From Azolla caroliniana (lineage: Eukaryota > Plantae > Polypodiophyta): a stretch of DNA of 64,000 nt. Within the stretch, counting starts at the first letter, position 1. Each line of letters starts with the position of its first letter. The DNA lies in NCBI GenBank assembly GCA_043228905.1, contig JBHGNT010000012.1:13268001-13332000 (forward strand). The letters run 5' to 3'. Made by a program: the position numbers and the translations under genes. The notes beneath the pieces are model-generated. The model did no database searches and was not told the origin of the DNA. It saw only the letters and a program-made list of their open reading frames with translations. This document shows, one piece after another, positions 2,296 to 34,011 of the stretch.

Positions 2296-2305
2296 AACTC
2301 CCCCT

Positions 2306-4951: not shown

Positions 4952-6364
4952 GCTTCACTGGAATAAGGTTGTCTTCTGCAAGCCTCTTCATCCCCTTCTC
5001 ACTCATGTGGCACAATCTCTTGTGCCACAGCTCACCGGCAGTGTCGGTTGCCACGTTCAACTCTTCCGGACTCAACCAGGCATTCATAAGGTACAGTGTG
5101 TTGACTTTCCGGGCCCGAGCCACTATCAGGCTCCCCTTGCTGAACTTCATTACGCCGTTCCGGATGCTACCTGTGTAGCCTTCATCGTCTAGCCTCCCGG
5201 CCGAAATCAGGTTCAATCGAACCTCCGGAACGTGTCGGACATCCTTCAGCAGCATTTTGCATCCGGTCGGGGTTGTCAACCACACGTCTCCTATGCCGGC
5301 AATTCGGCACGTACCTTCATTTCCCATCCGAACACAGCCATGCTCACCGGCTGTGTAGGATGAGAAGTATCTTCTCTCCGGGGTCAGGTGGAACGATGCT
5401 CCGGAATCGACCACCCAGGTCGTCTCATCGCCGGCAATGTTTAGTTCACCTTCTTCGGTGATGAGCATGATTTCCTCTTCACTTGCCGCGAGTGCCGTCG
5501 TTCCTTTCCGGTCCTGCCCTCGCCGATCCGGACCTCTCCGGTCCGTGGCTCCCCGGTATGCACCGTTTCTCTCCGGTGACTTCTTCGAATCAGTGTCGTC
5601 GGCTCCGTTGTCCTTTCGGTAATGCCAACAATTCTTCCGGAAGTGCCCCGGCTTCCCACAGTGGAAGCATGTGGGTCTTCCTCTTGACTGCGACCGGGTC
5701 CCCGACTTCTCCCGTCTTTGCGGACTCCGGTTCCATTGTCTTCCCCGTTCCGATTCGGTAAGCAGCGCCTTTGAGTCGGAGGCCGGTTCTTTATCTCTCC
5801 GACGTGCTTCTTCGTTCAAAATACTTGTCTTTACCGTTTGTAGGGACAAGTTATCTTCCGTGCAGGAGGTGCTGAGAGTCACCACCAAGTTCTCCCAGCT
5901 TTCCGGCAATGTACACATCAGAATGATGGCTTGCATTGCATCCTCCAGCGGGAACTTAATCGCCGCAAGCTGGTTCACGAATCCCATGAACGTGCTTACG
6001 TGTTCCACCATACTCTCGCCGTCCCGGTACTTGAGGTTCACTATCTTCCTCATCAGGGAGGTCCGGTTCAACGCATTCTTCCTCTCGTAGAGGCCCAACA
6101 GCTTCCGCCACATCTCATATGCGTTGGTGTCGTTCGCCACATGTTGTAGAACGCTCACGTCGACGTATTGCCGAATGGTTGCAACGGCTTTCCGGTTCAG
6201 AAGCCTCCATTCCGACTCAAGTACCCCTTTCGGTATTTCCGACCTGTCAATCGGTTCGTACAGGTCCCGAACAATCAGAAGATCCTCCATCTTGATCTTC
6301 CAGTCGGCGTAATTCTGCGCATTCAGCACCATCATCCCCGGCTGCCCGCTGCCGCCGCCTTCCA
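4926..6364 (-). CDS. C1 Gag-protease (UBN2-type gag, CCHC knuckle, aspartic protease, GAG-pre-integrase start)
   Basis: ORF 4926..6446 has CFHCGKPGHFRKNC, WVVDSGASFH and LWHKRLCHMS; likely start MEGGGS at 6364, just after the PBS. Confidence 0.9.
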
Positions 6365-6395
6365 TTTTCTGCAGCAGTTCGCTCTGATACCAAAT

Positions 6396-7008
6396 TGATG
6401 AGGAATAATCGTCGCTTTCCAAACTCCACCTCTCGGCCGCAACCAAGGAAACACACGAATCGTTGTTGCAGAAAATGGGAAATGCAGAAGTAATAGATGG
6501 ACACGCGATTTAACGTGGAAAACCCTGTACGGGAAAAAAACCACGGGAGTACAAGACTCCGAACCGAAACTATGCACAGAGAAGTATACAATGGCGAGCT
6601 GCAAGGCGACGACCTTGAGCTCGCTGTCCTCGCCACAGGCGGCGGAAATACACAGAGGCGTCTACCTCTTCCTCTCTCTCACGCTCTATCTCTCTCTCTC
6701 TCACGGCTGCTCTCTCTTCACTCCTCTTGAGTGGAAAAACAGAAAAATGAGTAGCAACAATAAAACTGTTTGCCCTAAGTCATATTTATACACATATGAC
6801 TTTAGGGCTATTTACAACTATAGCCTCAAGGGCCCTTGGCAAACATATTCACAGATATGTCCCCGCATCCGGATCTCGCTCCGGGTACATTCGTCATCCG
6901 GCTCCGAAACCGGGGTCTTCATCATCCGGTTCCGAAACCGAAACCGGGCTTGTCGGCATTCATCTCCGACATCCGACCATCCCATCCGAAGGGACCGTAA
7001 TCCCAACA
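6396..7008 (-). repeat. 5' LTR of C1
   Basis: Matches 1683-2295; followed on - by PBS TGGTATCAGAGC (6381-6392). Confidence 0.95.
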
Positions 7009-10000: not shown

Positions 10001-10587
10001 AAGTGGGTTAAGCCCTACGTACTCAACACCATTGTGGCTATGATTGTTTAATTACATAACAAAATATCGAAGTGACCAACGGGGATGTCAACAAAAAATT
10101 GTTGAAAAAGGGATGGTGAAAACGCCATTACTATTAGAGACATGAACTAATGTAATCATTAGATAAGGATAGAATATAGATAGATAGAAAGGAGAGAGAG
10201 AGAAAGAAGGGTGCCGATCCACCCGGACCACCCCCAAGCGAAGGGATCAAGACGGACTTGAGCCTCAATCAGCGTCCCATACCACCGCCGTGGCGTCGAG
10301 TCGTACCTGGTGCGGGCGCACTCGTTACAAGAGTTGACCCACCATAAGACAAAGTCTCGACGTAGTCAACAAGCTAATCAAATGAGGGTAGCTAGGCCTC
10401 TTATTTATAGCGATACCCAAGGCCCCTAGGCAAGTTCACACTTGGCCTTATGGGTTGTCTCAATCCCAAGGATTAAAATTAATCCTCCCCTTCTTTACAC
10501 TCTCATTTAACCCTCACACTTATCCACGTGTATAGAATACTACGGTAAATTCTCACCACAGGATATTCTATGGCCATGCCCGTAACA
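7014..10587 (-). mobile_element. G1 copy A, 5' part: LTR, partly deleted leader, gag, protease, RT start
   Basis: ORF 8017..9231 ([24 protein letters not shown]); LTR ~10132-10587 starts TGTTACGGGCATG on -; PBS and ~0.7 kb of leader missing at ~10128. Confidence 0.9.
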
Positions 10588-12221: not shown

Positions 12222-15200
12222 TCTTACGAGCATGACCATATAATATCCCCTGGTGAGAATTTATTGTAGTATTCTATACATGTGGATAAGTGTGAGGGTT
12301 AAACGATAGTGTAAAGAAAGGGAGGATTACTTTTAATCCGTGGGATTGAGACAACCCATTAGGCCAAGTGTGAACTTGCTTGGGGGCCTTGGGTATCGTT
12401 ATAAATATGAGGCCTAGCTACCCTCATTTGATGACATCTTGACTACATTGAGACTCTGTTTCATGGTGGGTCAACTCTTCTAGCGAGCACGCTAGCACCA
12501 GGTACAACTTGACACCACGGCGGTGGTATGGGACGCTGATCGAGGCTCGAGTCCGTCTCGATCCCTTCGCTCGGGGGTGGTCGGGTGGATCGACACCCTT
12601 CTTTCTCTCTCTCCTTTCTATCTATCTATCTTTTATCCTTATCATATGCTTACTTTAGATCATAACTCTAACAATTGGTATCAGAGCTTATGTTTCTAAT
12701 GTTTCCTTTGTTTGTTTTTGTCTTCTTGATGGATGGTGATCGATCGACGTGCAGTTGACCTTGATCCAAATAGCGATCAACAAAGGAACTTCGGTAACTC
12801 TTTCTTGTTTTTTTTTTTTGTTTTTTTTCTTCTCCCATCTAATCATGTATATGGTCAATATGAATTTATTTCATTGATTCAATGATGTTGTAGTGTAATT
12901 AATTGGTTGTATAAAACGTTTACATATGTGTATGAGGTCAATACCTCATTTGACATATATTTAATATGTGATTAGTGTCGTATGCGTACGAGGTTAATAC
13001 CTCAATTGCGTATTACATTCACATACATATGTTACGTATGCGTATGAGGTCAATACCTTGATTTTTTGTAAATGATATGCGTTTGGTGTCGTATGCATAA
13101 GAGGTCAATACCTCAATTGCGTATTACGATTAACCCTTATTATTGGATGTTTCATGTGTGTAGAGGCTATATGCCTCAATTATGTGTCTCGATTTCATCA
13201 TACGTTGGCTATTTGATGTTGGGATTTTTCTTAATATACGCATATGTGGTGTATACGTATTTGATCATATATGTGTGATAAATATACATATGTGTATGTT
13301 AGTTATAACGTAATTTCTATATTGAATGTTGTCCTTTTCGGGGAAAGGATCTTGGTGTCCGTCCTCACATTTTTGTGAGAACGGCGTAGTCATCATCCTT
13401 TTTTCAACAATCTTTTTGTTGAAATCCCCGTTGGTCACTTCGATTTCATTACGTAACGAAACGATCATAGCCACAATGATGGTGAGAACGTACGGCTTGA
13501 CCCACTTCATGTGAGGTCGCTCATATCCAAAATCCCTCCCTCATTACATGGATATGATGCCACCATGAGATCATTCTAACGAAAGGCATTCATAATGAAC
13601 CATGTGATGGGCCACGTGGGCCTACTATGAAAAAAGGGCTCATTTGACTTGACCATTGGGTTGCACTTTGGCATATGCCATCATAATTATGAGACTTGAG
13701 GTTAGGTAACATACCAACATAATTTGTGGTAAATGAGAGGGAAATAACGACTCTTGACATATATGTTTCTTTTAAGAAAACATATATGGGCAAATGCCTC
13801 GCATATCTCTTATACGCATAAAACGTTAAATATTCAACACGAGCAACCTATTTGGTTAGCTCAAGTGTTTAATGCATTTGTTCTCGAGTTCCAATATGAC
13901 CAAGACCATACAACATTATTGATACATATGACTATAATACATGTTTAGACTTTAGGTTTAAGTGCACTTCGGGGTCCTCGTAATAGGACTTAAAGAGCCG
14001 AAACCACATATGTGGGCACAGAAACATAGTTTATTGTTAACATTTTTTTCGTGTATAAACTCATGACTCGAACATACGTGGTTGAGCCTCGGGGAGCCGC
14101 CATGAAAAAACGATATAGAGATCAGGGAAAGACATTCATTTGTCACCCCCATGGTTTTAAAAACACCTTTGTGTTACCATAGTAACCTGATCTTGAACAT
14201 CATCTCATACGACTAGAGGGGTATTGACGTGAGATCAAGATATCGATTAATGTTGGCCCATGATATGTTTACATCACGACTTGATGTTATGACTATTTGT
14301 CTGACCTTATCGTATTGCTTTGCCAGAAATAATAATTCAATGGCTCAGAATAACGAACCGATGTCATCCGCTCAAGTAGAAGAAACTCAAGCAAATCCTC
14401 TTGGAGCAATCTCCATTGAGTCGTATTTCTTACAAATAAAAAATTTCCTTAGTTCAACCGCTCATCAAATGTCCGAACTTCGGCAATCTCAAAGTGCTCT
14501 CGAGGCACGTGTCATTAGTTTACAACATGACACTAAAAGACCCGATGAGCGTCAAGGTGAAACATCATTTGTCGTAAAGCCATTTACGATAGAAAAAAAA
14601 GAAAGAGCCGAAGAAGCAATATGCACGTGGTTGGGCCAATGGGAGTCTCATTTTGAGCTCTATCCCACGCCAGATAGTACGAAGATTGCATATGTCGGCA
14701 GAGAACTAGGGGGTAAGGTCGCCGCCTAGTGGCGTGGGCTCCGAACTTTGGGAAATTGCTCGATACTTAGACAAATTTTGTCACATTTTTTAAGGGCCCA
14801 TGATATGTTTACATCACGACATGATGTTATGACTATTTGTTTGACCTTATCCTATTTCTTTTCCAGAAATAATCATTGAATGGCTCAAAATAACGTCCCG
14901 ATGTCATCCGCTCAAAATAATCATTGGATGGCTCAAAATAACGACCCGATGGGAGTCTCATTTTGACCTCTATCCCACGCTAGATAGTACGAAGATTGCA
15001 TATGTCGGCCGAGAACTAGGGGGTAAGGCCGGCGCGTGGTGGTGTGAGCTCTGAACTTTGGGGAAATTTCCCGATACCTGGATAGACTTTGTCACAGTTT
15101 TTAAGGGCCAATTTCTGTAACCTCCCTCTCGAACCGAGGCAGCTCAAGCCTTAATGAACCTCTCTAGCATGAAGTTTTCTCGCTAGAAAACTATGTCCAC

Positions 15201-15344
15201 CATGCTAGAACCCAAATCCAAAAATCGGGTCTAGAAGGGGACAATTGGTTAATAGCTTGTTTTGTTAATGGCATCCTCAATTCGGACTATCATTGGATAG
15301 TGCATGATAATGATCCCAAATCCTTCGAAGAGGCCGTTGAAATA
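12222..15344 (+). mobile_element. Older G1 copy B: LTR, PBS, long leader, scrambled and duplicated gag
   Basis: LTR ~12222-12673 ending CTCTAACA; PBS TGGTATCAGAGC 12676-12687; gag MAQNN at ~14340, restarting at ~14880 and ~14928. Confidence 0.88.
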
Positions 15345-15924
15345 TGTTACGGGAACCACGGGATATTATATGGTCATGCCCGTAATACTACGGTAATTTC
15401 TTACCACGGGATATTATATGGTCATGCCCGTAACAATTTACCGTAGTATTCTATACACGTGGATAAGTGTGAGGGTTAAATGATAGTGTAAAGAAGGGGA
15501 GGATTACTTTTAATCCTCGGGATTGAGACAACCCATTAGGTCAAGTGTGAACTTACCTGGGGGCCTTGGGTTTCGCTATAAATAAGAGGCCTAGCTACCC
15601 TCATTTGATCTTTTGACTACATCGAGACTCTGCTCATGTGGTGGGTCAACTCTTGTAGCGAGCGCGCCAGCACCAGGTACGACTCGACGCCACGGCGGTG
15701 GTATGGGACGCTGATCGAGGCTCGAGTCCGTCTCGATCCCTTCGCTCGGGGGTGGTCGGGTGGATCGGCACCCTTCTTTCTCTTTCTCCTTTCTATCTAT
15801 CTTTTCATTATCCTTATCTTAAGCTTACGTTAGTACCTAGATCTATAATATTTGGTATCAGATTTTTGTACTAATGTTTCTTTGTTTTTCATTTGTCTTT
15901 TGATTCATGCTGATCGATCGTTGT
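15345..15924 (+). mobile_element. G1 LTR with rearranged 5' end, plus PBS and leader stub
   Basis: TGTTACGGG at 15345; LTR body ends TATAATA at 15850; TGGTATCAG at 15853. Confidence 0.85.
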
Positions 15925-16009
15925 ATCCAACCCACCGTGAATGGGGAATCCAACCCACCGTAAACGTGAATGGGGAATCCAACCCACCGTAAGTGATCAC
16001 ACCTACACT

Positions 16010-18936
16010 ATGTCCCGATTCAATTAACATATTTTGAACAACAACAACTTGATGAAATCTTAAATGATTTTCATGATGTTTTTCCAAGTGAACTACCTGA
16101 TGGGTTACCTCCTAAACGTAATATAGACCATCGTATAGATATTGTACCTGGTGTTGCACCAATAAGTATACCTCCGTATCGCTTAAATCGATCCGAAGAA
16201 GATGAGGTATCTAAGCAACTCAAGGACTATTTACGAATGGGTTATATACGTTATAGTAAATCTCCATGGGGTGCACCAGTTCTCTTGGTTAAAAAGAAAG
16301 AGGGCACATGGCGTATGTGTATTAATTATCAACGCTTGAATAAAGAAACGATCAAGAATTCGTATCCATTGCCCCGGGCTGACGATCTAATTGACCGTCT
16401 CCAGGGAGCTCGGTATTTTACGAAACTTGATCTCCGTACTGGCTACCATCAAATACGAATAAGTGAGGACGATGTTCCTAAAACGGCATTTCGTACGCGC
16501 TATGGCCATTACGAGTTTTTGGTTATGCCTTTTGGTTTGACCAATGCTCCGGCTACTTTTCAACAAGAAATGAATGACATTTTCCGAGAACAACTTGGAA
16601 AATTTGTCGTTATTTTCTTGGATGATATTTTAGTTTATAGCCGTACATTACAAGAACATGCTAGACATGTCCGCTTTGTTTTACAAACATTGCGTGACAA
16701 ACAGTTTTATGCGAAGATCTCAAAATGTGAGATCTTCAAGAAATCAATTACTTATCTAGGACATCTCATAACCGAACGAGGAGTTGAAATTGATCCTTCT
16801 CGCATTGAGAAAATCAAGCTTTGGCCCACTCTTCGGATTATTCGAGAAATTCGATCATTCCTTGGTTTTGTGGGGTTTTTGCGAAAGTCTCTTCGTAATT
16901 ACTCCCAATTGACGACGCCGTTTACTGATCTTTTAAAAGGTCAAACGCGTAAGTCTACAAAACCTATTGTGTGGAATGCTACACTAGACCTTGCCTTTAA
17001 GGAACTCAAGGACTTTGTTTGCAAGGCTCCTTCACTTCTTTTACCCGATCCTTCAAAACCTTTTGAGGTTGAAACCGATGCAAGCGATTATGCTATAGGT
17101 GTTGTCTTGAATCAAGATGGTAAACCAATAGCATTCGAGAGTAAGAAACTTGATTCTGCTCAATGTCGGTATACCGTTCAAGAAAAGGAATAATTTGCAG
17201 TTATACATGCGCTCAAAACATGGCGCCATTATCTTTATGGAAATCACTTTGTGGTAACTATGGACCACGAGTCCTTGAAATATTTTTGTGACCAACAAGA
17301 CCTGAAAGGTCGTAAGGCACGATGGGCTGATCTCATCCAGGACTTTGATTTTTCCATACGATATCGTAAAGGTTCCATGAACACTGTCGCTAATGCACTA
17401 AGTCGCATCCGTGAAGTTAACACGCTTAGCTTCACTGAAATATCATCAGATCTTTATGATCACCTTCGAGGAAAGTATTCTGATGACAGTTATTTCGCAA
17501 AATACTGGGGAAGAGTTGAGTCTGGAACAGACACCACCACATCCTTGAAGGAATACTTCCACATTGCTAACGGTTTGCTCTACCGTAATGGGAAGGTTTG
17601 TGTCCCAGATTTAACCGAGGTCAAAAAGAGGATTCTTTTTTAATGCCATGATGCACCCTCAGCAGGGCACCCTGGAATACATCGTACACTCGTTCTCATC
17701 TCCACTCAATTTTATTGGCCTAAGATGCGTCCTGACATACATAGCTATGTGACTAAATGTCACCAGTGTCAGGTTAACAAAGTCGAGCGACTTAAAGCTG
17801 CAGGACTTTTACATCCCTTGGACATTCCCAATAATAAGTGGGAAAGTATATCCATGGATTTTATTGTTAGCCTTCCCCGCACCCAAAAAGGTCATGATGC
17901 CATCTGGGTTGTCGTTGATCGACTAACTAAAATGGCCAGATTTATTGCTACTAAAACCACGGTAACAGCTCCTGAATTGGCTTACCAATTCGTTGACGAA
18001 TTGTTTCGTTTTTATGGGTTACCGATGGATATCGTGAGTGATCGAGATCCAAAGTTTACTAGTGACTTCTGGACACAAGTCTTTAAGAAGTTAGAAACTA
18101 CGTTGAGCATGAGCTCCACGGATCATCCTCAATCCGATGGACAGACAGAACGAGTAAATAAAATTATTGAGGACATGCTTCGAGCATACGTTGGTGCAAA
18201 ACCAACAAAATGGGAACGTTATCTCCCAATTTTGGAGTTTGCTTATAACAGCTCCAAGCATACGTCGACGGGATATAGTCCTTTTATGTTGATGTATGGT
18301 TTTCAGCCACGAGCCCCGATTGATGTTAATATACATCATGATGAGTTGCGAAGTACACAAAACTTTCTTCGGGATATGCAAGATATGTTGCATATTGCAC
18401 GAGATAATATAAAAACAGCTCAAGATAGAGCGCGTTTTTATGCCGATCATCATAGGCAACCTCGTGTATTCAACCCTGGACAGAAGGTATTTTTACGTGT
18501 ACCTCACAATTCTAAGACATTGTCTACGGGTAAGTGCGCTAAGTTAGCCCCACGGTTTTGTGGACCTTTTACAGTCCTCAAACGCATTGGGTCATCAGCC
18601 TATCGTCTCGCTCTTCCCAATGGTGTTGGAATTCATCCAGTCTTTCATGTGAGTCGTCTAAAAGAACTTCTAGGTTCTGGCGACAATACAGTTATGACTG
18701 AAACTCTGGTTACTTCTGAAGAATTATCTTCTAAACCACATGTACCAGAAAGAATTCTCGATGTTAAAACAAAAAATTTACGTACTAAAGAAATCCGAGA
18801 ATTGAAAATAAAATGGATGGATAAATCAATAAAAGATGCCACATGGGAACGCGAAAATACTCTTAGAACTAACTTCCCTAACTTTCCATTGCAAGAGTGC
18901 AATGTTTTAAAGAGGGGGAGTATGTTACGGGCATGA
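16010..18936 (+). pseudogene. G1 pol: RT, RNase H, integrase and C-terminal chromodomain
   Basis: ORFs 16237..17193 ([20 protein letters not shown]), 17251..17643 and 17725..18936 (SMDFI, SDRD, DGQTERVN, GPF, PERILD..KW..ATWE); nonsense codons at 17191 and 17641; PPT AAAGAGGGGGAG just before 18923. Confidence 0.93.
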
Positions 18937-19835
18937 CCATATAATATCCCGTGGTAAGAATTTACCGTAGTATTCTATACACGTGGATAAGTGTGAGGGT
19001 TAAACGAGAGTGTAAAGAAGGGGAGGATTACTTTTAATCCTCGGGATTGAGACAACCCATTAGGTCAAGTGTGAACTTGCCTGGGGGCCTTGGGTATCGC
19101 TATAAATAAGAGGCCTAGCTACCCTCATTTGATCATCTTTTGACTACATCGAGACTCTGCTCGTGTGGTGGGTCATCTCTTGTAGCGAGCGCGCCAGCAC
19201 CAGGTACGACTCGACGCCACGGCGGTGGTATGGGACGCCGATCGAGGCTCGAGTCCGTCTCGATCCCTTCGCTCGGGGGTGGTCTGGTGGATCGGCACCC
19301 TTCTTTCTCTTTCTCCTTTCTATCTTTCATTTCTTTATCCTTATCTTAAGCTTACTTTAGTACCTAGATCTATAATATTATGTTACGGGCTTGACCATAT
19401 AATATCCCGTGGTAAGAATTTACCGTAGTATTCTATACACGTGGATAAGTGTGAGGGTTAAACGAGAGTGTAAAGAAGGGGAGGATTACTTTTAATCCTC
19501 GGGATTGAGACAACCCATTAGGTCAAGTGTGAACTTGCCTGGGGGCCTTGGGTTTCGCTATAAATAAGAGGCCTAGCTACCCTCATTTGATCATCTTTTG
19601 ACTACATCGAGACTCTGCTCGTGTGGTGGGTCATCTCTTGTAGCAAGTGCGCCAGCACCACGTACGACTCGACGCCACGGCGGTGGTATGGGACGCCGAT
19701 CGAGGCTCAAGTCCATCTCGATCCCTTCACTCGGGGGTGGTCGGGTGGATAGGCACCCTTCTTTCTCTTTCGCCTTTCTATCTTTCATTTCTTTATCCTT
19801 ATCTTAAGCTTACTTTAGTACCTAGATCTATAATA
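18923..19835 (+). repeat. Two G1 LTRs head-to-tail (18923-19377 and 19381-19835) joined by TTA
   Basis: Both are 455 bp, TGTTACGGG...TATAATA; first is preceded by PPT, second is followed by PBS at 19838. Confidence 0.95.
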
Positions 19836-19837
19836 TT

Positions 19838-22306
19838 TGGTATCAGATTTTTGTACTAATGTTTCTTTGTTTTTCATTTGTCTTTTGATTGATGCTGATC
19901 GATCGTTGTGCGGTTGGCCTTGATCCAGACAACGATAAACAAAGAACTTCGGTAACTCTTTCCATAATTTTTCTTTCTATTCTCTTTTCTCCCATCTAAT
20001 CATGTGTTTAGTTTATATGTAATTTTTTTCATTAAGTCAATGATGTTGTAGTGGTCTTTAATTGATTATCTAAAACGTTTACATATGTGCACGAGGTCAA
20101 TACCTCGTTTGACATATTAATAATATGTGATGAGTGTCGTATGCGTACGAGGTTAATACCTCAATTACGTATTACGTTCACGAACATATGTTACGTTTGC
20201 GTATGAGTTTAATACCTTGATTTGTTGTAAACGATATGCGTTTGGTCTCGTATGCGTAAGAGGTCAATACCTCCATTGCGTATTACGATGATCTCTTATT
20301 TGTGGATATTTCGTGTGCGTAGAGGTATATACCTCGATTACGTATCTCGATCACATCATTTGTGGCTATTTAATATAACGATATGTTTAATATAGGCATA
20401 TGTGGTCACATATATACGTATTTGATCGTATATATGTGATAAGTAAACATATGTGTATATTCGTTATTACATGATTATATCGAAAGTTGTCATGGTCGGG
20501 AAAAGGATGTTGGTGGCCGTCCTTACATTTTTGTGAGAATGGCGTTGTCACCATCCCTTTTTCAACATTTTTTTATTGTTGATAACCTCGTTGACGACCT
20601 CGATTTCGTTACGTAAAGAAACGCCAATAGCCAAAATGATGTTGAGTACGTAGGGCTTGACCCACTTCAAGTGAGGTCGCTCCAATGACGCACGTATCCA
20701 ACATCCCTCCCTCGTTACATGGATACGATGCCACCATGAGCTCGTTCTTACGAGAGGCATTCGTAATGACGTGACCATATGATGGCCCACGTGAGCCTAC
20801 TACGAAACGAGGGCTCATTTGGCTTGACCATTAGGTTGCCCTTTGGCATATGCCATCGTAATTACGAGACTTGAGGTTAGGTAACATACCAACATAGTTT
20901 TGGTAAATGAGGGCGAAATAAGGACCTTGACATATATGTTCTTTTAAAAAAACATATATGATCAATTGCCTCGCATATCTCTTATACGCATCAAACATTA
21001 AGCATTCGAGAAGAGCAACTTACTTGGTTGGCTCAAGTGTTTAATGTATTTGTTCTCGAGGTCTCGAGTTCAAATATGACCAAGACCATACAACATCCTT
21101 GATACATATGACTATAACACATGTTTAGACTTAAGGTCTAAGTGCACCTCGGGGTCCTCGTAATAGGACTTAAAGAGCAGAAACCACATATGTGGGCACC
21201 GAAACATAGTTTATTGTTAACATTTTTTTTCGTGTATAAACTATTCATGATGCGAACATACATGGTTGAGCCTCGGGGAGCCACCATGAAAAAATCGATA
21301 TAGAGATCAGGGAAAGACTTTTTTTTGTCACCCCCATGGTTTTTAAAACACCTTTGTGTTACCATAGTAACCTGATCTTGAACCTCATCTCATACGTCTA
21401 GAGGGGTATTGACGTGAGATAATGATATCGATTAATGCTCGCCCATGATATGTTTACATCACGACATGATGTTATGACTATATCTCTGACCTTATCCTAT
21501 TTCTTTTCCAGAAATAATCTTTAATGGCTCAAATTAACGACCCGATGTCATCCGCTCAAGCGGAAGGAACTCAAGGGAATCCTCCTGGACAAATGTCCAC
21601 TGAGATGTATTTGGCACAAATAGCCCAATACCTTAGTTTCACCGCTCAACAGATGACCGAACTTCGGCAATCTCAGAGTGCTCTTGAGGCACGTGTCATT
21701 AGTCTACAACGTGAGACTAATAGACCTGATGAGCGACAAGGTGAACCATCATTTGTCGTTAAGCCATTTACGGGAGACAAAAAGGAAAGAACCGAAGAAG
21801 CAATCTGCACATGGCTGGGACGATGGGAGTCTCATTTTGAGCTCTATCCCACGCTAGATAGTACGAAGATTGCATATGTCGGCCTAGAACTCGGGGGTAA
21901 GGCCGCCGCCTGGTGGCGTGGGCTCCGTACTATGGGGAAATTGCCCGATACCTGGACAGATTTTGTCACGGTTTTTAAGGACCAATTTCTACAACCTCCC
22001 TCTCGAACCGAGGCAGCACAAGCTTTAATGAACCTCTATAGCAGGAAATTTTCCTCGCTAGAAGACTATGTTCACCATGCTAGAATCCAAATCCAAAAAT
22101 CGGGTCTAGAAGGGGACAATTGGTTGATAGCTTGTTTTGTCAATGGCATCCCCAATTTGGACTATCACTGGATAGTGCACGATAAGGATCCAAAATCCTT
22201 CGAAGAGGCCGTTGAAATAGTTCTTCGCTATCAACGCACTTCGAAGAAGGACCATAACAAACCCAACGAAGCGCCCGGGACTAAGCAGTTGCAATTTGTT
22301 GGGAAA
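19838..22306 (+). mobile_element. G1 PBS, 1.7-kb 5' leader and gag, truncated before the zinc knuckle
   Basis: ORF 21524.. MAQINDPM...QFVGKR, then a switch to inverted pol. Confidence 0.9.
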
Positions 22307-23697
22307 CGGATGCGACTTAGTGCATCAGCGACAATGTTCATGGAACCTTTACGATATCGTATGGAAAAATCAAAGTCCTGGATGAGATCAGCCCATCGTG
22401 CCTTACGACCTTTCAGGTCTTGTTGGTCACAAAAATATTTCAAGGACTCGTGGTTCGTAGTTACCACAAAGTGATTTCCATAAAGATAATGGCGCCATGT
22501 TTTGAGCGCATGTATAACTACAAATAATTCCTTTTCTTGAACGATATACCGATATTGAGCAGAATCAAGTTTCTTACTCTCGAATGCTATTGGTTTACCA
22601 TCTTGATACAAGACATCACCTATAGCATAATCGCTTGCATCGGTTTCAACCTCAAAAGGTTTTGAAGGATCAGGTAAAAGAAGTGAAGGAGCCTTGCAAA
22701 CTAGGTCCTTGAGTTCCTTAAATGCAAGGTCTAGTGTAGCATTCCACACAATAGGTTTTGTAGACTTACGCGTTTGACCTTTTAAAAGATCAGTAAACGG
22801 CATCGTCAATTGGGAGTAATTACGAAGAGACTTTCGCAAAAACCCCACAAAACCAAGGAATGATCGAACTTCTCGAATATTCCGAAGAGTGGGCCAAAGC
22901 TTGATTTTCTCAATGCGAGAAGGATCAATTTCAACTCCTCGTTCGGTTATGAGATGTCCTAGATAAGTAATTGATTTCTTGAAGAACTCACATTTTGAGA
23001 TCTTCGCACGCAATGTTTGTAAAACATAGCGGACATGTCTAGCATGTTCTTGTAATGTACGGCTATAAACTAAAATATCATCCAAGAAAATAACGACAAA
23101 TTTTCCAAGTTGTTCTCGGAAAATGTCATTCATTTCTTGTTGAAAAGTAGCTGGCGCATTGGTCAAACCAAAAGGCATAACCAAAAACTCGTAATGGCCA
23201 TAGCGCGTACGAAATGCTGTTTTAGGAACATCATCCTCACTTATTCGTATTTGATGGTAGCCAGTACGGAGATCAAGTTTCGTAAAATACGAAGCTCCCT
23301 GGAGACGGTCAATTAGATCGTCAGCCCGGGGCAATGGATACGAATTCTTGATCGTCACTTTATTCAAGCATCGGTAATTAATACACATACGCCATGTGCC
23401 CTCTTTCTTTTTAACCAAGAGAACTGGTGCACCCCATGGAGATTTACTATAACGTATATAACCCATTCGTAAATAGTCCTTGAGTTGCTTAGATACCTCA
23501 TCTTCTTCGGATCGACTTAAGCGATACGGAGGTATACTTATTGGTGCAACACCAGGTACAATATCTATACGATGGTCTATATTACGTTTAGGAGGTAACC
23601 CATCAGGTAATTCACTTGGAAAAACATCATGAAAATCATTTAAGATTTCATCAAGTTGTTGCTGTTCAAAATATGTTAATTGAATCAGGACATTATC
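22304..23697 (-). pseudogene. Inverted G1 RT-RNase H fragment
   Basis: Core of ORF 22231..23790 ([20 protein letters not shown]); both ORF ends are chimeric. Confidence 0.9.
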
Positions 23698-24089
23698 CGG
23701 CTCCCCGATACGGCCGGTTGTTTCCAGATATCGATCCGGCTCAGGCTTATTCAGCCAATCCATATCCGGTTGAGCTTGCTCGCTCAACACTCCCCCTCAA
23801 GCTCAACTTGAGGTCGAATCGTGGTGTTAGTGTCTGTGGCGGCCGGTTCTTCTACCCGGTGCCTTCTGGCGTTGCTCCGCCTCGCTCGCGTTCCTCGTCC
23901 AGTCCGATCTTGTTTGCCGCGACCCTTCTGGTTTTGTGCACCTCGACCTCCTCGGTCGGCTTGTCTGCTCAACAGGCCCATTTCAGCTCCCTCGCTGTTG
24001 CGACTCCGGCGCTTGTCCACCCGTCGGTTCCTTCGTGTTGGCCTCGACTTCCGCGGCGTCCGTATCCACTTGGCCTTTAGTTCATCCAA
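23697..24089 (-). mobile_element. Copia C2 3' end: truncated 3' LTR (~23697-23789), PPT and 3' internal region
   Basis: LTR start TGTTGAGCGAGCAAGC on - matches 35330-35459; GAGGGGGAG PPT at ~23790-23798. Confidence 0.82.
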
Positions 24090-25735
24090 TGTTGTCCGCT
24101 GGAATAGTAACCGACGAACAGAAGCGCAGAAATATTAGAATATAGTAAAAGCATAAGAAACGCATGTAACGGTTCACGTGGGAAGTGTGAACGGCTAAAA
24201 GACCCTAGGTATATAAAGGGCAAAAATCCTCTGTAAGAGGTAGCGTGTAAATTTGATGCATAGAGTGTTATTCTAATAGAATACTATCTTTTCTGATTTC
24301 TGTGCATATTTGTGGTTTTATCTACTATGTTCTTTGTTCTCTGTGGCGAACTGTAATCGTAAAGGTGTAGGTGTAAGTGCGGATACTAAGTGCACTTCCT
24401 AAGGAGTTCGGTTGTAGCCGTCTCCCTTATACACTACTAGGATACAAGGAAGTATCCCATTACGTATTACAGTGTGACGGTACCATTCCTTGCAACACAG
24501 TCACCTTGAGGTCTAGGTCGAAGGACTGATCATAGACAGTGTTCCTAATCGGTAACACGTTTGGCACGCTTGGTGATCTGTGTCTTCTCGCAGACGAACA
24601 ACGACGAATGGATGTTTAGTCATAGACGTCCTAGAGAACCAGCACGACACGACCGACCAGTCACAAGGTCCATCACACGCCAGGCAGAGGAATGCGCAAG
24701 GCAAAAACCTCACCTCAGTGACCTTAGTGATATCTGTCGAGACCACAAAATCGCCTTCCCGCTCACCAAATACCCCGGCAACACACAGGAAGTTTCGTCA
24801 CCACACAAGTACGGTGGTCTTCCCTTTCCCGTCGTAGCGTCCAGCATGGCCTTCTCCTATCCCCGCTTCAACGGTGAAACAGACGTCGTAACCCACATTC
24901 GCTTGTTCTTGAATGTCTGGAATGCGAATCACATGGCAAAGAGACTTCCAGAAGAGGTAGCGCATCAGTCCAAAATGACAGAGTTTGGATTAACGTTGGA
25001 TGGTAGAGTTGCGTTTTGGCATTCGCAGATGGATCTGCCAGCAATCACGACCTTCGACTAGCTGCAGTCAGCCTTTCTACGGTTCTTTCATCGCAAGGTG
25101 CCGCAACGCGAAATCCTCGGGCAGTTCTATACAATCAAACGGTTGCCAGTCGAGACTGTCAAGGACTTCAGTTTACGCTTCCAAAATTTGCGCCGGAAAT
25201 TAGAATGGGGCCCGACATAGGACGAGGCTCAGGAGACATTTCTGCCAGCCTTACGACGACCGATACAGATGACGCTCAACAATAATAGCGTGAAAGGAGA
25301 AACAACTGATATGTTCATAGAACGAGCGTTGCAACTCGAGCTGGACGAAGAAGAGGAAAGGTTTTCTATTGCCTCATTACGACAAGTGTTACCTCAGGAC
25401 GAGGAACAACATTTTCGCCAAGCAATCTAGTGTACGATTTGCCTCAATTCTGGACATTCCGCAATGGAATGCAACATGCGAATCCACTGCCCAATCTGTC
25501 ACTCGAAAGCACACATGATCGAGCAGTGTGAGTACAATATGTTGAACAGACCCACGCCCATAGTACGAAGCATAGAAACACAACGACCACCTCGCCGTAG
25601 TGATCAAAGGCGCCAAGAAGAACAACCCCGGTATACGGATCGGAATCCACACGATGACCGGCACTACCGGAATCGCCAGAATAACAACGATTCCGAGGAA
25701 AAAGAACTGGAGGACGAAGACTACCAGGGCAACTG

Positions 25736-27256
25736 CAAATATAATAAAGGAGGACGACGTTACGAAAACTACCATTGTCGTGAAAATCCGTCACTATGTG
25801 CGGATCGAGAGGCGGAACCGCCGGGGTTCTGGACTAGAAGGATTTAGTGCAACACGTACAACACAAGGAAAATTCACATATAAGACGAGTAGATGAGAGA
25901 AAACCTTCGTTTATAGCATAAGAAAATAGATTCTTTTATAATTCAAGAATCTTGTTACAGTGGGTTGGAGATGAAAATGAGAGATAATTTTTTTAAAGAA
26001 AGGAGCCAACAACCATATAAGGAGTGGTCCAATATGAATATGAGAGATTATTCTTGAAAGGAAGGAGCCAACAACCATGTAAGGAGTGGTCTGATATCAA
26101 TATGAGAGAGATTTCCTCCCCAAGGAATGGGAAAGAGAAGAAGAAAAAAAAAACACTAGAGGGAAAAAATGGGACATATATTGAGCTCTTTTCTTATCCC
26201 CCCTTCGCAATGTTACTTTGCCTCCACTTTTAGTTGCATGGCCTCCATTTTTAGTTGCATGCCTTTTACTTTTAGTTGCATGCGATCGTCCGTATAATTC
26301 AACCAAATGACGCAATCATCCATAAAGTTTAGCTCATGCGCAATCCGTACGTGCGTCGTAACCAAACCGTAGACGTGTCCGCGCACAAAAGTCCTAACAG
26401 CGCAATGTACGCATCCACGCACGCGCGCGTCCCGATCGCGCCGTGTACGCCGCATCCGCACACACGCGCGTCTCGACCACGCCATGTACGCATCCGCGCG
26501 CTCGTCCACACACACGTCCGTCCGAAACGTCCACGCAACCGTGTATGCATCCGCGCACTCGTCCACACATGCATCCGTCTGAAACGTCCACGTGTATGCC
26601 TGGAACTTGCACACGCACGTACATCCGAAAACGTCCACGCGGCCGTGCACATGCGCATACGCCTGAAGCATCCGCGCGCTCGTCCACACACACGTCCGTC
26701 CGAAACGTCCACGCAACCGTGTATGCATCCGCGCGCTCGTCCATACATGCATCCATCAAAAACATCCACGTGTATGCCCGGAACTTGCACACGCACGTAC
26801 GTCCGAAAACGTCCACGCAGTCGTGCACATGCGCATACGCCTGAAGCGTCCACACTACACAATGTAGCCCAAGTCACCTTAAACATTCTGTGTTGCACAC
26901 ATTGATAGAATGAATATGTACGCCTAAAGTCCACACTACACAATGTAGCCCAAGTCACCTTAAACATTCTGTGTTGCACACATTGATAGAATGAATATGT
27001 TTTGGTTTCCCTTATATATCATGAGTTCCAATGTTGTCCTATCTATGTGGGATATCTCACAGTTTTGTCTTTTCTTTCTTTTCTTTTTTCTTCAAACTTC
27101 ACACTCACATAATTTGATACTTGTTTATCCGTTTCATGCATAGTAAAATACGTTATGAAGCTCTTGAAGACATCTATCTTTCAATATGAATACATTAAGC
27201 TAATCTTAAATAATTATTTTACTATTTTTTATATTGTGTGTGAAAAACCACACAAC
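25736..27256. mobile_element. Unclassified ~1.5-kb non-coding insertion in G2 gag
   Basis: G2 gag rejoins as GGCAACTG|TCCGGCG when it is removed; ACTG on both sides; hairpin TTGTGTG-8nt-CACACAA at the right end. Confidence 0.65.
26390..27000. repeat. GC-rich minisatellite plus a ~72-bp direct duplication
   Basis: Recurrent GCATCCGCGCGCTCGTCCACAC and CCGAAACGTCCACG units; 26848-26919 is repeated at 26929-27000. Confidence 0.9.
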
Positions 27257-29310
27257 ACTGTCCGGCGAACAAACATGGTGGCTTCAATGGGTCTCGTGGG
27301 AAACATCGACAGTATAGGGACCAACAACGTTACGACGAAAGTTCAGACGATGATCGGCACCAGGAGCCACGTCAGGACCAACAACAACCAGCGCGGACTT
27401 TCAGAAGAATGAACCAAGACCAGGAAGAGCAAGTCACACCTGGGGAGAGGAACATGCCACCAGCTATCGAGAAAGGCGAATCCAGCGTCCATTGTTTCGT
27501 TTGCCAACAACCCGGACATTATGCCACTCAATGTCCACTCCGCAAGGGCAAGGGCAAGGGCCCCGCTGTCAATACGATTATGGCGGACATTCAGCAAGTT
27601 ACGACAAGACAGCAAACGAAAAATGTTGATTGGGTCGCGCAAGATGCGATACGTCAGACGGCCCAAGCATGGGTCAAAAAAGCAAACGCGGCCAATACGG
27701 AACGCATGGGGCAGGAGTCCGCAAACAATGTTGGGCCATTGGAGGAAGACGTAATATCTTCGGATCCCATATGGCAAGCACTGGCAGGCTACGAAATAAC
27801 ACTGACCGTGGAGAAGCTACTTCAACTAGTTCCACAGTTCCGCCAAGCCATAGAGGATCACATAACGGGCAGACCTCGTCTCCGCCAACTTTACGAACAC
27901 CATCGCCAGACCAACGGTGGTGGATCACCACAATCCAGCTATTAAGTTGGTATTACACGGTCAGGAAATCACAGGATGCGTAATCGATTGAGGCTCTAGT
28001 GTCAATGTAATTAGCGCGAAGACATGCGAACAATTGGGAATTTCAGAATGCTTGCCCGTTTTGGCTTCGCATGGCGGATACCCGCTCAGTAAGGCCTTTG
28101 GGCTTAATTCGAAAATTAGGCATCATCATCGGCGGACATCGCTTCGACATCTCGGCGGTAGTCCTTGCCCTCGACGCCCTAGGAGCGTATCTTATGCTGC
28201 TTGGCAGACCTTGGCTTTGTTCGGCGAATATCAAACAGAGCTGGCAACATAAGTGCATCAATTTTCGACGTGGACGCACCAAGGTTCCCGTACCCACAGA
28301 GGAAATGGTGGCACAAACCAAGGGGATAACACCATTATACGCAGAAGATATAAATATGTTGGATGGGGTGGATGATACTGAATTAGAAGCATACCTTGAC
28401 GAGCACCCCCGAATCATTCTGCTATTCGAAATCGACGTAATAGAAACCGCAGCGGATTATGCCACGCCTACTGCGCTTCACGACGAGGCTTATGAACCAG
28501 ACCTAGAGTCAATATTAGAATTAAGCAGAGCACGGGCAGCGTTTGAGAGGGAAATGGAAATTTCATGACGAGTCGCTGCCTCAACCCTAGAAGAAGTGAA
28601 CGTAGGTACCGCGTCAGATCCCTGATTCCTCTCCATCGCAAAAGAGTTACTACCGGATTAGAGAGAGGCGATGATAGCACTGCTTAGGAAGTATAAAGAT
28701 GTGTTCGCTTGGTCCCACGAGGACATGAAGGGATTAGATCCGAAGTTCTATCAACATAAGATCAATTTAGCGACCGATGCGAAACCAGTCCAGCAGCGTC
28801 GATACCGCATGAATCCAAATTACGCGGCTTGCGTAAAAGAGGAAATTGACAAACTTCTCAAGACCGGATTCATTCGACCAGTCAAGAAAGCTACATGGCT
28901 AAGCCTGATAGTAGTCATACGAAAGAAAAATGGCAAACTACATGCGTGCGTGGACTACCGGAAGTTGAACGTTGTAACCATTACAGACGCATTCCCTTTA
29001 CCTTTCACCGACAGCGTACTGGATGCAGTCGCAGGGCATGACATGTATAGCTTTCTGATTGGCTTCAGTGGGTACAATCAAGTACGCATGCACCCCGACG
29101 ACCAAGAGAAGACGGTGTTTGTCACGGACTGGGGAGTCTATGTTGAAGTCGTCATGATGTTCGGGCTAAAGACGGCGCCGGCTAAATTTTAGCGGACAAT
29201 CACAGAGATTTTTGGGGAATATATATCTGCCTTCATGCAGGTCTTTTTAGATGATTTTGCGGTATATGGGACAACAGCTGAAGATTTTACGCATCTACAG
29301 CTTTGCCTCT

Positions 29311-29796
29311 GTCCTTTGGCAAACAAGGCGGTGCCGACGTCGTTTGTGTCGAGGATGAACATCCTCCCATCTCTACGCCCTTGTGCAATAATTTGGCCCT
29401 CTTCCTCGATGAAGCACCCGAGGTGCGTAAACCGCACATGCATCCCCTGGTCGACGATTTGTTTGACCGACACCAGGTTCTTTGTGATTGTCGGAACGTG
29501 TAATACATTCATCGGCTTCCCCCTTTGTCCGACATGGCTCAAAGGGACTTCACCAACATGCACAATCGGGTGAGGAGTGTCGTCGCCGGTTTTAACAACT
29601 CCCGGTTGATCCGATTTCTCCAGAAAAGAGAACCACTCTTCGTGGCTCGTCATGTGGTTCGACGCACCGGAATCAACGTACCATACTTCCTCTTATTTGA
29701 AAGTAGTCTTCTTCATCGGGTTTGCCTTGTGTCTCATCACGAAGGCTGGCCCCTTTCCGGTTTTCCTGGTTCCGGATCCCTCCAATCCTTCCGCGT
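29311..29796 (-). pseudogene. C2 protease region
   Basis: WYVDSGASNHMTSHEEWF...NVLHVPTITKNLVSV on - strand. Confidence 0.85.
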
Positions 29797-32700
29797 ACCC
29801 ACCACAAGAGCAAAGTCTCGATGTAGTCAAAAAGATTCAATGAGGGTAGCTAGGCCTCTTATTTATAGCGATACCCAAGGCCCCCATGCAAGTTCACACT
29901 TGACCTAATGGGTTGTCTCAATCCCGAGGATTAAAAGTAATCCTCCCCTTCTTTACACTCTCGTTTAACCCTCACACTTATCCACGTGTATAGAATACTA
30001 TGGACCCCGGGGCAATGGGTACGAATTCTTGATCGTCATTTTATTCAAGCGTCGGTAATTAATACACATACGCCATGTGCCCTCTTTCTTTTTAACCAAG
30101 AGAACTGGTGCACCCCATGGAGATTTACTATAACGTATATAACCCATTCGTAAATAGTCCTTGAGTTGCTTAGATACCTCATCTTTTTCGGATCGACTTA
30201 AGCGATACGGAGGTATACTTATTGGTGCAACACCAGGTACAATATCTATACGATGGTCTATATTACGTTTAGGAGGTAACCCATCAGGTAGTTCACTTGG
30301 AAAAACATCATGAAAATCATTTAAGATTTCATCAAGTTGTTGTTGTTCAAAATATGTTAATTGAACCAGGACATTATCGATATTGTAAACGTGAATGTCC
30401 GGATCAAGTACACAATAAAATAACGTAGAACAAGACAACTCGGATATTGATGGACACGAGGAAACAATCGAGAGGGATTGTTTTTTTACACATTGAATAA
30501 ATTGCGTACAATCGTTCAGTACAAAAGAAATGGAATGGCGAACCCAATCAATAAATAAAGAAGATTTTTTATTATGAAACCAGGGATAACCCAGTATTAC
30601 ATCAGTAGTACAAAGATTCATTACATGGAAGTCTACTTCCTCTATATAAGTATCAATAGAAATTCCTAATGAATGAATCGCCCCGTTGATGTATTGTACT
30701 CTTCCATCAGCCAAGTGCACCGTGTAGGTGTGATCACTTACAGTGGGTTGGATTCCCCATATCTGAACCAAACGATCATTCACAAAATTGTGTGAGCTTC
30801 CCGAATCAAATAAAAATTGTACGGGAAATCCATTGATATACCCGTTTGCACGTAGTAAGTCATTGGGACCCAATACATAGTGAGGGAAAGAACATTGAAA
30901 ATTACTTAAATGATGTGTATAGACCTGAAGGACATTAGGAATCTGACCTTTATGGTCTGCAGCTTTAGCTTTGTTGTCGTGCTCTTTCCATTGGAGCTTT
31001 CGACATTGATCTTTTGTATGACCCTTCTTTTTGCAGAATACACAAAAAGGATGTTGTCGCTTACAATCGCGATCCAGGAATTCGTTGGGTGTCTTGCGTT
31101 TCCCAACAAATTGCGACTGGTTAGTCCCAGGCGCTTCGGTGGGTTTGTTATGGTCCTTCTTCGAAGTGCATTGATAGCGAAGAACTATTTCAACGGCCTC
31201 TTCGAAGGATTTTGGATCCTTATCATGCACTATCCAGTGATAGTCCGAATTGGGGATGCCATTGACAAAACAAGCTATCAACCAATTGTCCCCTTCTAGA
31301 CCCGATTTTTGGATTTGGGTTCTAGCATGGTGAACATAGTCTTCTAGAGAGAGAGGTTCATTAAAGCTTGTGCTGCCTCTATTCGAGAGGGAGGTTGTAG
31401 AAATTGGCCCTTAAAAACCGTGACAAAATCTGTCCAGGTATCGGGCAATTTCCCCATAGTACGGAGCCCGCGCCACCAGGCGGCGGCCTTACCCCCGAGT
31501 TCTCGGCCGACATATGCAATCTTCGTACTATCTGGCGTGGGATAGAACTCAAAATGAGACTCCCATCGTCCCAGCCATGTGCAGATTGCTTCTTCGGTTC
31601 TTTCCTTTTTGTCTCCCGTAAATGGCTTAACGACAAATGATGGTTCACCTTGTCGCTCATCAGGTCTATTAGTCTCATGCTGTAGACTAATGACACGTGC
31701 CTCAAGAGCACTCTGAGATTGCCGAAGTTCGGTCATCTGTTGAGCGGTGAAACTAAGGTATTGGGTTATTTGTGCCAAATACATCTCAGTGGACATTTGT
31801 CCAGGAGGATTCCCTTGAGTTCCTTCCGCTTGAGCGGATGACATCGGGTCGTTAATTTGAGCCATTAAAGATTATTTCTTGAAAAGAAATAGGATAAGGT
31901 CAGAGAGATAGTCATAACATCATGTCGTGATGTAAACATATCATGGGCAAACATTAATCGATATCATGATCTCACGTCAATACCCCTCTAGACGTATGAG
32001 ATGAGGTTCAAGATCAGGTTACTATGGTAACACAAAGGTGTTTTTAAAACCATGGGGGTGACAAATAAATGTCTTTCCCTTATCTCTATATCGATTTTTT
32101 CATGGTGGCTCCCCGAGGCTCAACCATGTATGTTCGCGTCATGAATAGTTTATACACGAAAAAAATGTTAACAATAAACTATGTTTCGGTGCCCACATAT
32201 GTGGTTTCGACTCTTTAAGTCCTATTACGAGGACCCCGAGGTGCACTTAGACCTTAAGTCTAAACATGTGTTATAGTCATATGTATCAAGGATGTTGTAT
32301 GGTCTTGGTCATATTTGAACTCGAGACCTAGAGAACAAATACATTAAACACTTGAGCCAACCAAGTAAGTTGCTCTTCTCGAATGCTTAATGTTTGATGC
32401 GTATAAGAGATATGCGAGGCAATTGATCATATATGTTTTTTTTTAAAAGAACATATATGTCAAGGGTCCTTATTAAGCCCTCATTTACCAAAACTATGTT
32501 GGTACGTTACCTAACCTCAAGTCTCGTAATTACGATGGCATACGCCAAAGTGCAACCTAATGGTGAAGCCAAATGAGCCCTCGTTTCGTAGTAGGCTCAC
32601 GTGGGCCATCACATGGTCACGTCATTACGAATGCCTCTCGTAAGAATGAGCTCATGGTGGCATCGTATCCATGTAACGAGGGAGGGATGTTGGATACGTG

Positions 32701-34011
32701 CGTCATTGGAGCGACCTCACTTGAAGTGGGTCAAGCCCTACGTACTCAACATCATTATGGCTATTGGCGTTTCTTTACGTAACGAAATCGAGGTCATCAA
32801 CGGGGTTATCAACAATAAAAAATTGTTGAAAAAGGGATGGTGACAACGCCATTCTCACAAAAATGTGAGGACGGCCACCAACATCCTTTTCCCGACCATG
32901 ACAACTTTCGACATAATCACGTAATAACGAATATACACATATGTTTACTTTTCACATATATACGATCAAATACGTATATATGTGACCACATATGCCTATA
33001 TTAAACATATCTTTATATTAAATAGCCACAAATGATGTGATCGAGATACGTAATCGAGGTATACACCTCTACGCACACGAAACATCCACAAATAAGAGAT
33101 CATCGTAATACGCAATTGAGGTATTGACCTCTTACGCATACGAGACCAACCGCATATCGTTTACAACAAATCAAGGTATTAAACTCATACGCAAACGTAA
33201 CATATGTTCGTGAAAGTAATACGTAATTGAGGTATTAACCTCGTACGCATACGACACTCATCACATATTATTAATATGTCAAACGAGGTATTGACCTCGT
33301 GCACATATGTAAACGTTTTAGATAATCAATTAAAGACCACTACAACATCATTGATTTAATGAAAAAAAATGACATATAAACTAAACACATGATTAGATGG
33401 GAGAAGAGAGAATAGAAAAACATTTCTGGAAAGAGTTACCGAAGTTCTTTGTTGATCGCTGTCTGGATCAAGGCCGACCGCACATCAATCGATCACCATC
33501 AATCAAACGACAAATGAAAAACAAATAAACATTAGTACATAAATCTGATACCAAATATTAGAGATCTAAGTACTAAAGTAAGCTTAAGATAAGGATAAAG
33601 TAATGATAAATAGAAAGGAGAAAGAGAAAGAAGGGTGTCGATCCACCCGACCACCCCCGAGCGAAGGGATCAAGACGGACTCGAGCCTCGATCGGCGTCC
33701 CATACCACCGTCGTGGCGTCGAGTGGTACCTGGTGCTGGCGCGCTCGCTACAAGAGTTGACCCACCACAAGAGCAGAGTCTCGATGTAGTCAAAAAGATG
33801 ATCCAATGAGGGTAGCTAGGCCTCTTATTTATAGCGATACCCAAGGCCCCCAGGCAAGTTCACACTTGACCTAATGGGTTGTCTCAATCCCGAGGATTAA
33901 AAGTAATCCGCCCCTTCTTTACACTCTCGTTTAACCCTCACACTTATCCACGTGTATAGAATACTACGGTAAATTCTCACCACGGGATATTAAATGGTCA
34001 TGCCCGTAACA
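29797..34011 (-). mobile_element. G1 copy D nested in C2 gag; most of pol and both ends of the 3' LTR are deleted
   Basis: 5' LTR 33556-34011, PBS ~33545-33553, leader, gag 31865->, PR and RT start to ~30006, LTR remnant 29797-30000; flanks CGCGT (29792-29796) and CGCAT (34012-34016) look like a decayed TSD. Confidence 0.88.

What the first reader, a model, noticed from the sequence alone, without database searches (positions are those of the whole stretch)
15925..22306. Circularly permuted gypsy copy with an LTR-LTR junction: likely fossil of a re-integrated 2-LTR circle
Seen: order is PR-end/RT/RH/INT, PPT, LTR, TTA, LTR, PBS, leader, gag, i.e. the element opened between gag and protease. 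In this family TT lies between LTR and PBS, and TA lies between PPT and LTR. Ligating unprocessed cDNA ends would therefore give LTR-TTTA-LTR; LTR-TTA-LTR is observed (19378-19380). The two joined LTRs share variants (GTCATCTCT, CTTTCATTTCTTT) absent from the LTRs at 15345 and 33556 (GTCAACTCT), so they pair with each other. Established: end-joining of linear retroelement cDNA makes 2-LTR circles, usually considered dead ends. Inference: a circle broke and was captured at a repair site without integrase.
Basis: partly seen in the sequence, partly recalled or inferred. Interest (0 to 1): 0.85.

Follow-up and report, generated by a model that had tools for sequence, protein, structure and literature searches.

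The report
Fossil end-joined retrotransposon DNA in fern
In a probable fern genome, one dead copy of a jumping gene has its two end repeats joined back to back by three bases expected only on a free DNA copy, so it is likely a ring-shaped copy that broke and was patched into a chromosome break without the element's own insertion enzyme.

Summary
The order is pol, PPT, LTR A (18923-19377), TTA, LTR B (19381-19835), PBS, leader, gag, and there is no target-site duplication. TTA is the TT and TA of free cDNA ends overlapping by one T. A and B differ at 11 of 455 sites, group together (87/89), and share an allele at no more than 0.22% of family contig depth in 4 runs, so they are sisters. Its five joints show microhomology or templated fillers, the signature of polymerase-theta-type repair. 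A 722-nt stretch including the protease is missing, and it supplied one filler. End-joined cDNA captured by repair is likely (about 0.8). One broken 2-LTR circle (0.5) and a head-to-tail pair of sibling cDNAs (0.3) cannot be separated. No read or contig bridging the junction was seen. The parts are known; a fixed plant example was not found in my searches. The scan noted circle-junction ideas before on other genomes, not at this locus.

The parts
15345..15435 (+). Left border of the block: first 9 nt of an LTR joined to an older copy's gag through a 2-nt TA overlap, followed by two inverted copies of the LTR's first ~50 nt (templated filler)
15436..15924 (+). LTR C (to 15850), TT, PBS and the start of the leader; a separate young fragment lacking the rare A/B allele
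15925..16009 (+). 85-nt filler alternating between a protease stretch (copy D 30760-30722) and the opposite strand of the bases just upstream of the pol restart (D 30385-30397); both templates lie in the missing 722 nt
16010..18922 (+). pol fragment P1: RT, RNase H, integrase and chromodomain, with two premature stops; PPT at 18909-18920 and TA at 18921-22
18923..19377 (+). LTR A (455 nt, TG...TA ends), in 3' LTR context
19378..19380 (+). TTA junction: the TT of the right cDNA end and the TA of the left cDNA end, sharing one T
19381..19835 (+). LTR B (455 nt), in 5' LTR context; 11 substitutions from A
19836..22308 (+). TT, PBS (19838-47), 1.7-kb leader, and gag cut before its C-terminus; ends in a 3-nt microhomology (22306-08)
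22306..23697 (-). Inverted pol fragment P4 (RT to RNase H), 34 differences in 1388 aligned nt from P1; starts within 1-4 nt of P1's start; right border of the block, joined by a 3-nt microhomology to a cut copia LTR

Best explanation
This is a dead chromovirus-type gypsy copy whose two LTRs are joined back to back, likely because a free cDNA was closed into a 2-LTR circle, broke in the protease region, and was then patched with other cDNA pieces into a chromosome break by host repair, without integrase. Shown by the sequence: the permuted order, the TTA spacer, sister LTRs, no TSD, microhomology or filler at all five joints, and filler templates lying in the missing 722 nt. Inferred steps: (1) end-joining of TT and TA through one shared T, which works for unprocessed ends or for integrase-trimmed ends with 2-nt overhangs; (2) one break in or near the protease; (3) polymerase-theta-type priming that copied the circle's other end into the left joint; (4) co-capture of LTR C and of the inverted pol, the latter possibly a copy-back to the end of the broken molecule; (5) loss of host sequence between an old gag (15344) and a copia LTR (23697). 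Age is roughly 1-2.5 Myr from 2.4% LTR divergence, using recalled rates that were not checked for this fern.
For: Only free cDNA places TT after a PPT-side LTR and A before a PBS-side LTR (established reverse-transcription model; family spacers; chance 0.022). A and B share three derived sites and form a clade at 87/89. At 19634 the non-majority share of summed contig depth is 0.05%, 0, 0 and 0.22% in 4 of 4 runs, so the shared allele is nearly private. The two halves do not overlap and miss only 722 of 6108 internal nt; two independently truncated cDNAs do this in 11% of simulations. No TSD was found, while a copia element in the same window has a perfect 5-bp one. [quoted passage not shown] P1/P4 divergence (34/1388) matches A/B divergence (11/455).
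Against: B and C share T at LTR position 174 (non-majority share 0.9-5.9% in 4 runs), while A has the common base; one cDNA then needs a repeat mutation or a reversion. Mutations since the split are lopsided: 9 in B and 1 in A (p 0.02; 0.065 if the ambiguous site goes to A). A+B support is below the tool's starred threshold. P1 and P4 share no derived allele against two or more other copies, and one non-CpG site (17014) groups P1 with another copy. Gene conversion between the adjacent LTRs could create shared alleles. No contig bridging the exact junction appeared among the rows shown (the tables were cut and only contigs were available).
Confidence: 0.5

Rival explanations
1. Two sibling linear cDNAs from one burst were ligated head to tail, and the concatemer, truncated at both sides, was captured at the break along with other fragments.
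For: It gives the same TTA junction. The block holds at least two more family fragments (C and P4), so several molecules were present. It would explain the B/C allele that A lacks. Multi-fragment insertions at breaks, including Ty cDNA with cDNA-only extra nucleotides, are shown in yeast (PMC11372161, passages).
Against: It needs both molecules to carry the nearly private allele and two truncations that happen to be complementary (11%).
Confidence: 0.3
2. Ordinary integrase insertion of one element 3 bp beyond another's 3' LTR, or a nested insertion, followed by later deletions and inversions.
For: The family is high-copy and LTR-in-LTR joints exist in other copies. Double insertion at one site is documented in Drosophila (PMC5932611, passages and section 5).
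Against: The spacer is 3 nt rather than a 5-bp TSD, there is no TSD at any tested end, the spacer matches the cDNA-end letters, and unrelated insertions should not share a near-private allele.
Confidence: 0.08
3. One-ended integrase event: integrase joined the TG end of LTR C into the old gag, and repair finished the other end with a concatemer containing the junction.
For: The block starts exactly at TG of an LTR. The young LTRs end in TA rather than CA.
Against: The TA before TG is both the host's gag sequence and the unprocessed cDNA end, and an inverted filler follows after 9 nt. Contigs show LTRs ending precisely at both termini with varied flanks, so TA-ended copies seem to integrate normally.
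Confidence: 0.07
4. Assembly artefact or contamination by extrachromosomal circles.
For: No bridging read or contig was seen, and the region is highly repetitive.
Against: A current circle would have identical LTRs, but these differ at 11 sites including 5 CpG transitions. Repeat misjoins usually share one LTR and would not insert three fitting bases or templated fillers (inference).
Confidence: 0.05

Closest known systems
2-LTR circles of LTR retrotransposons and retroviruses (PMC7197481, PMC12951756, PMC10959353, PMC12786077; passages read)
   Same: Two full LTRs joined tail to head with junction nucleotides, attributed to non-homologous end-joining of linear cDNA.
   Different: Those are extrachromosomal with identical LTRs. 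This one is chromosomal, permuted and 2.4% diverged. PMC10959353 controls for genomic LTR-LTR junctions but does not describe them in the passages seen.
Ty1 cDNA capture at double-strand breaks in yeast (PMC11372161; passages read)
   Same: Integrase-independent, multi-fragment, and retains nucleotides found only in cDNA.
   Different: Induced and mostly short fragments. No permuted near-complete element with an internal LTR-LTR junction appeared in the passages seen.
[quoted passage not shown]
   Same: Microhomology of 2-3 nt, fillers templated from the ends of the captured DNA, and sequence loss.
   Different: The substrate here is retrotransposon cDNA, and the enzyme is inferred only from the scars.
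Tandem LTR retrotransposons in plants and Tf1 integrase-independent tandems (PMC11899658, parts 1-4 of 6; PMC11042837, passages)
   Same: Gypsy copies in tandem, partly without integrase.
   Different: Those share a single internal LTR and often have a TSD. Here there are two full LTRs and no TSD.
LTR-LTR tandem junctions in Drosophila genomes (PMC5932611; passages and section 5; its Table S2 not seen)
   Same: Genomic junctions between the LTRs themselves, at low frequency.
   Different: The mechanism is left open or ascribed to double insertion with a TSD. No cDNA-end letters or permutation were reported in what I read.

Membership tests
Chromovirus Ty3/gypsy | RT-RNase H-integrase order with a C-terminal chromodomain | tested here: met
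   (Chromo E 2e-05, 24.9 bits against a cut-off of 25.1); close relatives carry PF00385
Chromovirus Ty3/gypsy | Clade (Tcn1, Tekay, Reina, Galadriel, CRM) by RT tree | not tested
   no reference set was fetched
2-LTR circle junction | Full U5 end joined to a full U3 start with residues of the cDNA ends | tested here: met
2-LTR circle junction | Both LTRs from one cDNA (identical at origin) | tested here: inconclusive
   rare shared allele and clade support it; one conflicting site and a 9:1 asymmetry oppose it
2-LTR circle junction | Halves sum to at most one genome, without overlap | tested here: met
   722 of 6108 nt missing; the inverted pol P4 is extra
2-LTR circle junction | Circles of this family exist as extrachromosomal DNA | not testable with these tools
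   only contigs were available
Integrase-mediated insertion | LTR termini at both borders with a 5-bp TSD | tested here: not met
Shared-LTR tandem | A single LTR between internal regions | tested here: not met
   two full LTRs
Theta-mediated end-joining scar | Microhomology and templated insertions from nearby ends | tested here: met
Theta-mediated end-joining scar | Genetic dependence on polymerase theta | not testable with these tools
   fossil event
Permuted-att gypsy lineages (earlier scan notes) | All copies begin and end inside the LTR, with circles as the normal route | tested here: not met
   other copies have ordinary LTR-PBS and PPT-LTR layouts and precise termini

The most novel reading that the evidence does not exclude
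A 2-LTR circle, usually called a dead end, re-entered a plant germ line: it broke once at the start of RT, both of its ends left their marks (the filler and the copied-back inverted pol), and such captures recur in this fern, forming a countable class of integrase-free insertions that tandem and intact-element pipelines miss.
Probability: 0.25. Interest if true: 0.65.

Novelty: new variant of a known kind. Interest (0 to 1): 0.4.

Why it matters
If the single-circle reading holds, it is a nucleotide-level record that end-joined retrotransposon DNA can become heritable through break repair in a plant. The junction also preserves the true cDNA termini of an unstudied fern family. It defines a simple genome-wide search (U5 end, 0-4 cDNA-end letters, U3 start) that would measure how often this route contributes to large fern genomes, and it warns that LTR-LTR reads in mobilome studies can be genomic. 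As one dead locus built from known steps, its weight is moderate.

Tried and rejected
No whole genome is held, so no genome-wide LTR tree or junction count was possible. A pattern scan of metagenome contigs gave 2 matches, and both were chance hits with no similarity to the element. Public runs: 19 of 21 listed hold part of the stretch, all as contigs, with a best word share of 0.63. I laid 5 of the 21 in two calls of 4. Neither call showed a contig across the exact junction or a full end-to-start joint, but 12 and 31 joints and most pieces were not displayed, so this is no evidence of absence. The idea that loss of the terminal CA cripples integration is largely rejected, because precise termini with varied flanks occur. 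The idea that LTR C is the 5' LTR of A's element is disfavoured: 12 substitutions plus an indel in 415 nt, the rare allele is absent, and there is no TSD. An autointegration circle is rejected because it separates or deletes the LTRs (PMC7197481 passages). P4 as a copy of P1 is unresolved. PMC3112259 (passages) did not detect integration of broken circular vector forms, which counts mildly against circles being a frequent substrate. PMC13568524 and PMC12868710 (passages) gave nothing usable; no fern rate was found, so the age uses recalled rates. PMC11724301 and PMC11054761 (passages) gave background only. A sequence look-up in earlier scan notes found no look-alike.

Full report
Setting. The first 37 kb of the window is a nest of one gypsy family (G1) mixed with copia, other gypsy and LINE pieces. 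A callose synthase exon at 62369 has its closest full-coverage named relatives in Adiantum (84%) against 73-79% in seed plants, and the integrase's best named hit is Ceratopteris (54%), so the host is probably a fern. G1 has RT, RNase H, integrase and a chromodomain. Its LTR contigs are very abundant in public runs of several coded organisms. No whole genome is held.

Observation. The anatomy is as reported: PPT, TA, LTR A (18923-19377), TTA, LTR B (19381-19835), TT, PBS, leader, gag. In a provirus, TT follows only a PBS-side LTR and TA precedes only a PPT-side LTR. A linear cDNA carries them at its outer ends (established model, recalled; yeast Ty1 insertions at breaks keep such cDNA-only letters, PMC11372161 passages). 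TT and TA overlapping by one T give TTA. Integrase-trimmed ends with 2-nt overhangs would give the same result, so the junction does not show whether the ends were processed (inference). The chance of TTA from local composition is 0.022.

Are the LTRs sisters? A/B differ at 11 of 455 sites, A/C at 12 of 415 plus an indel, and A/D at 16 of 455 plus an indel. A and B share three derived sites and group at 87/89, below the starred threshold, in a tree of 7 of the window's 8 LTR pieces (the short piece H was left out). Contigs from four runs laid on B show that at 19634 the majority base holds 99.8-100% of summed depth, so the A/B allele is nearly private; at 19784 the non-majority share is 0.7-24%. 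Summed contig depth is not a copy number, and only contigs at least 90% alike count. Against a clean single origin: B and C share a T at 19554 (non-majority share 0.9-5.9%) that A lacks, and B carries 9 later changes to A's 1 (p 0.02). Conversion between neighbouring LTRs cannot be excluded.

The real extent. The unit sits in a block of young G1 DNA from 15345 to 23697 with five joints. (1) An older gag meets an LTR start through TA, followed by two inverted copies of the LTR's first ~50 nt. (2) LTR C and the start of its leader meet pol through an 85-nt filler that switches repeatedly between a protease stretch and the opposite strand of the bases just before the pol restart. (3) TTA. (4) gag meets an inverted pol through 3 shared bases. 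(5) That inverted pol meets a cut copia LTR through 3 shared bases. Relative to copy D, 722 of 6108 internal nt are missing, including the whole protease, and both filler templates lie inside that gap. No end pair tested has a TSD, whereas the copia element at 1682-7008 has a perfect 5-bp one. The old LTRs at 12222 and 36506 group together (89/90) and may be the two ends of the host element, although they have no TSD; if so, roughly 3 kb of host was lost (inference). Microhomology with templated fillers is the polymerase-theta signature in Arabidopsis, where fillers can come from the other end of the captured DNA but also from unrelated molecules (PMC10923293 passages).

Circle or dimer. Non-overlapping halves with a gap this small arise in 11% of simulated pairs of independently truncated cDNAs, which favours one circle. 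The inverted pol starts within 1-4 nt of the forward pol (chance about 0.0015) and is as diverged from it (34/1388) as A is from B. That fits a copy-back to the end of one broken molecule, with the molecule's other end feeding the filler. But the two pol copies share no derived allele against two or more other copies; two conflicting sites are CpG and one is not. The young family is close to star-like, so the test has little power. I put end-joined cDNA captured by repair at about 0.8, split 0.5 for a circle and 0.3 for a sibling dimer.

Reality of the locus. Only contigs were available. Two layings showed LTR-PBS and LTR-flank ends and several LTR-in-LTR joints, but no contig across this junction among the rows displayed. 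Diverged LTRs and intricate fillers argue against an artefact or a present-day circle (inference).

What is known. 2-LTR circles form by end-joining (PMC7197481, PMC12786077, PMC10959353, passages), and retrotransposon circles rarely integrate in the Drosophila germ line (PMC12951756, passages). Plant tandems described so far share one LTR (PMC11899658, parts 1-4 of 6). Tf1 integrase-independent tandems do too (PMC11042837, passages). Drosophila genomes hold rare LTR-LTR junctions of unstated origin (PMC5932611, passages and section 5; Table S2 was not among the supplement files that could be searched, and may bear on novelty). Five searches aimed at this structure and two on capture and vectors listed no paper describing a fixed, permuted 2-LTR junction in a plant chromosome. 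I saw only the top listings, and the library lacks most subscription papers. Earlier scan notes describe gypsy lineages on other genomes that may use circles as their normal route. G1 is not one of them, since its other copies have ordinary ends.

Verdict. A real, single, dead locus that records end-joined retrotransposon cDNA captured by error-prone repair. The circle reading is the best one but is not proven. New variant of a known kind; interest 0.4.

Noticed in passing
window 10130-10587, 15345-15850, 18923-19835, 33556-34011 versus 12222-12673, 36506-36960: Five G1 LTRs (A, B, C, D, E) end TG...TA, while the older F and G end in the canonical CA; a non-canonical terminus that seems to have amplified successfully.
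   Followed up: partly
window 29792-34016: Copy D sits in a copia element between two 5-mers matching at 4 of 5 bases, yet its pol breaks after 370 nt of RT and its 3' LTR is only positions 43-251; possibly a one-ended or pre-rearranged insertion.
   Followed up: partly
window 1-1682: A second inversion joint between two G1 pol fragments at 414/415.
   Followed up: partly
window 14795-15344: An older set of short gag and leader duplications with filler-like pieces, just left of the block.
   Followed up: partly
window 10129-10130: LTR E is joined directly to mid-leader, with the PBS and about 700 nt missing.
   Followed up: no
window 1682-7008: A near-intact copia element with 99.3% identical LTRs and a perfect 5-bp TSD, nested in G1 pol.
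   Followed up: partly
window 23697-24080 and 34992-35459: Two LTR pieces of another copia family; the left one is cut after about 95 nt and differs from the right by a 36-nt indel.
   Followed up: partly
public contigs laid on window 19170-19610: A joint from LTR position 360 to TA plus the LTR start occurs in runs of two studies (X2, X5); it could be another LTR-LTR junction with a U5 deletion, or a nested insertion.
   Followed up: no
window 24080-29306: Fragments of another gypsy family, with a 178-nt tandem repeat near 26490-26851.
   Followed up: no
window 62369-63241: Callose synthase exon, closest to fern proteins.
   Followed up: partly
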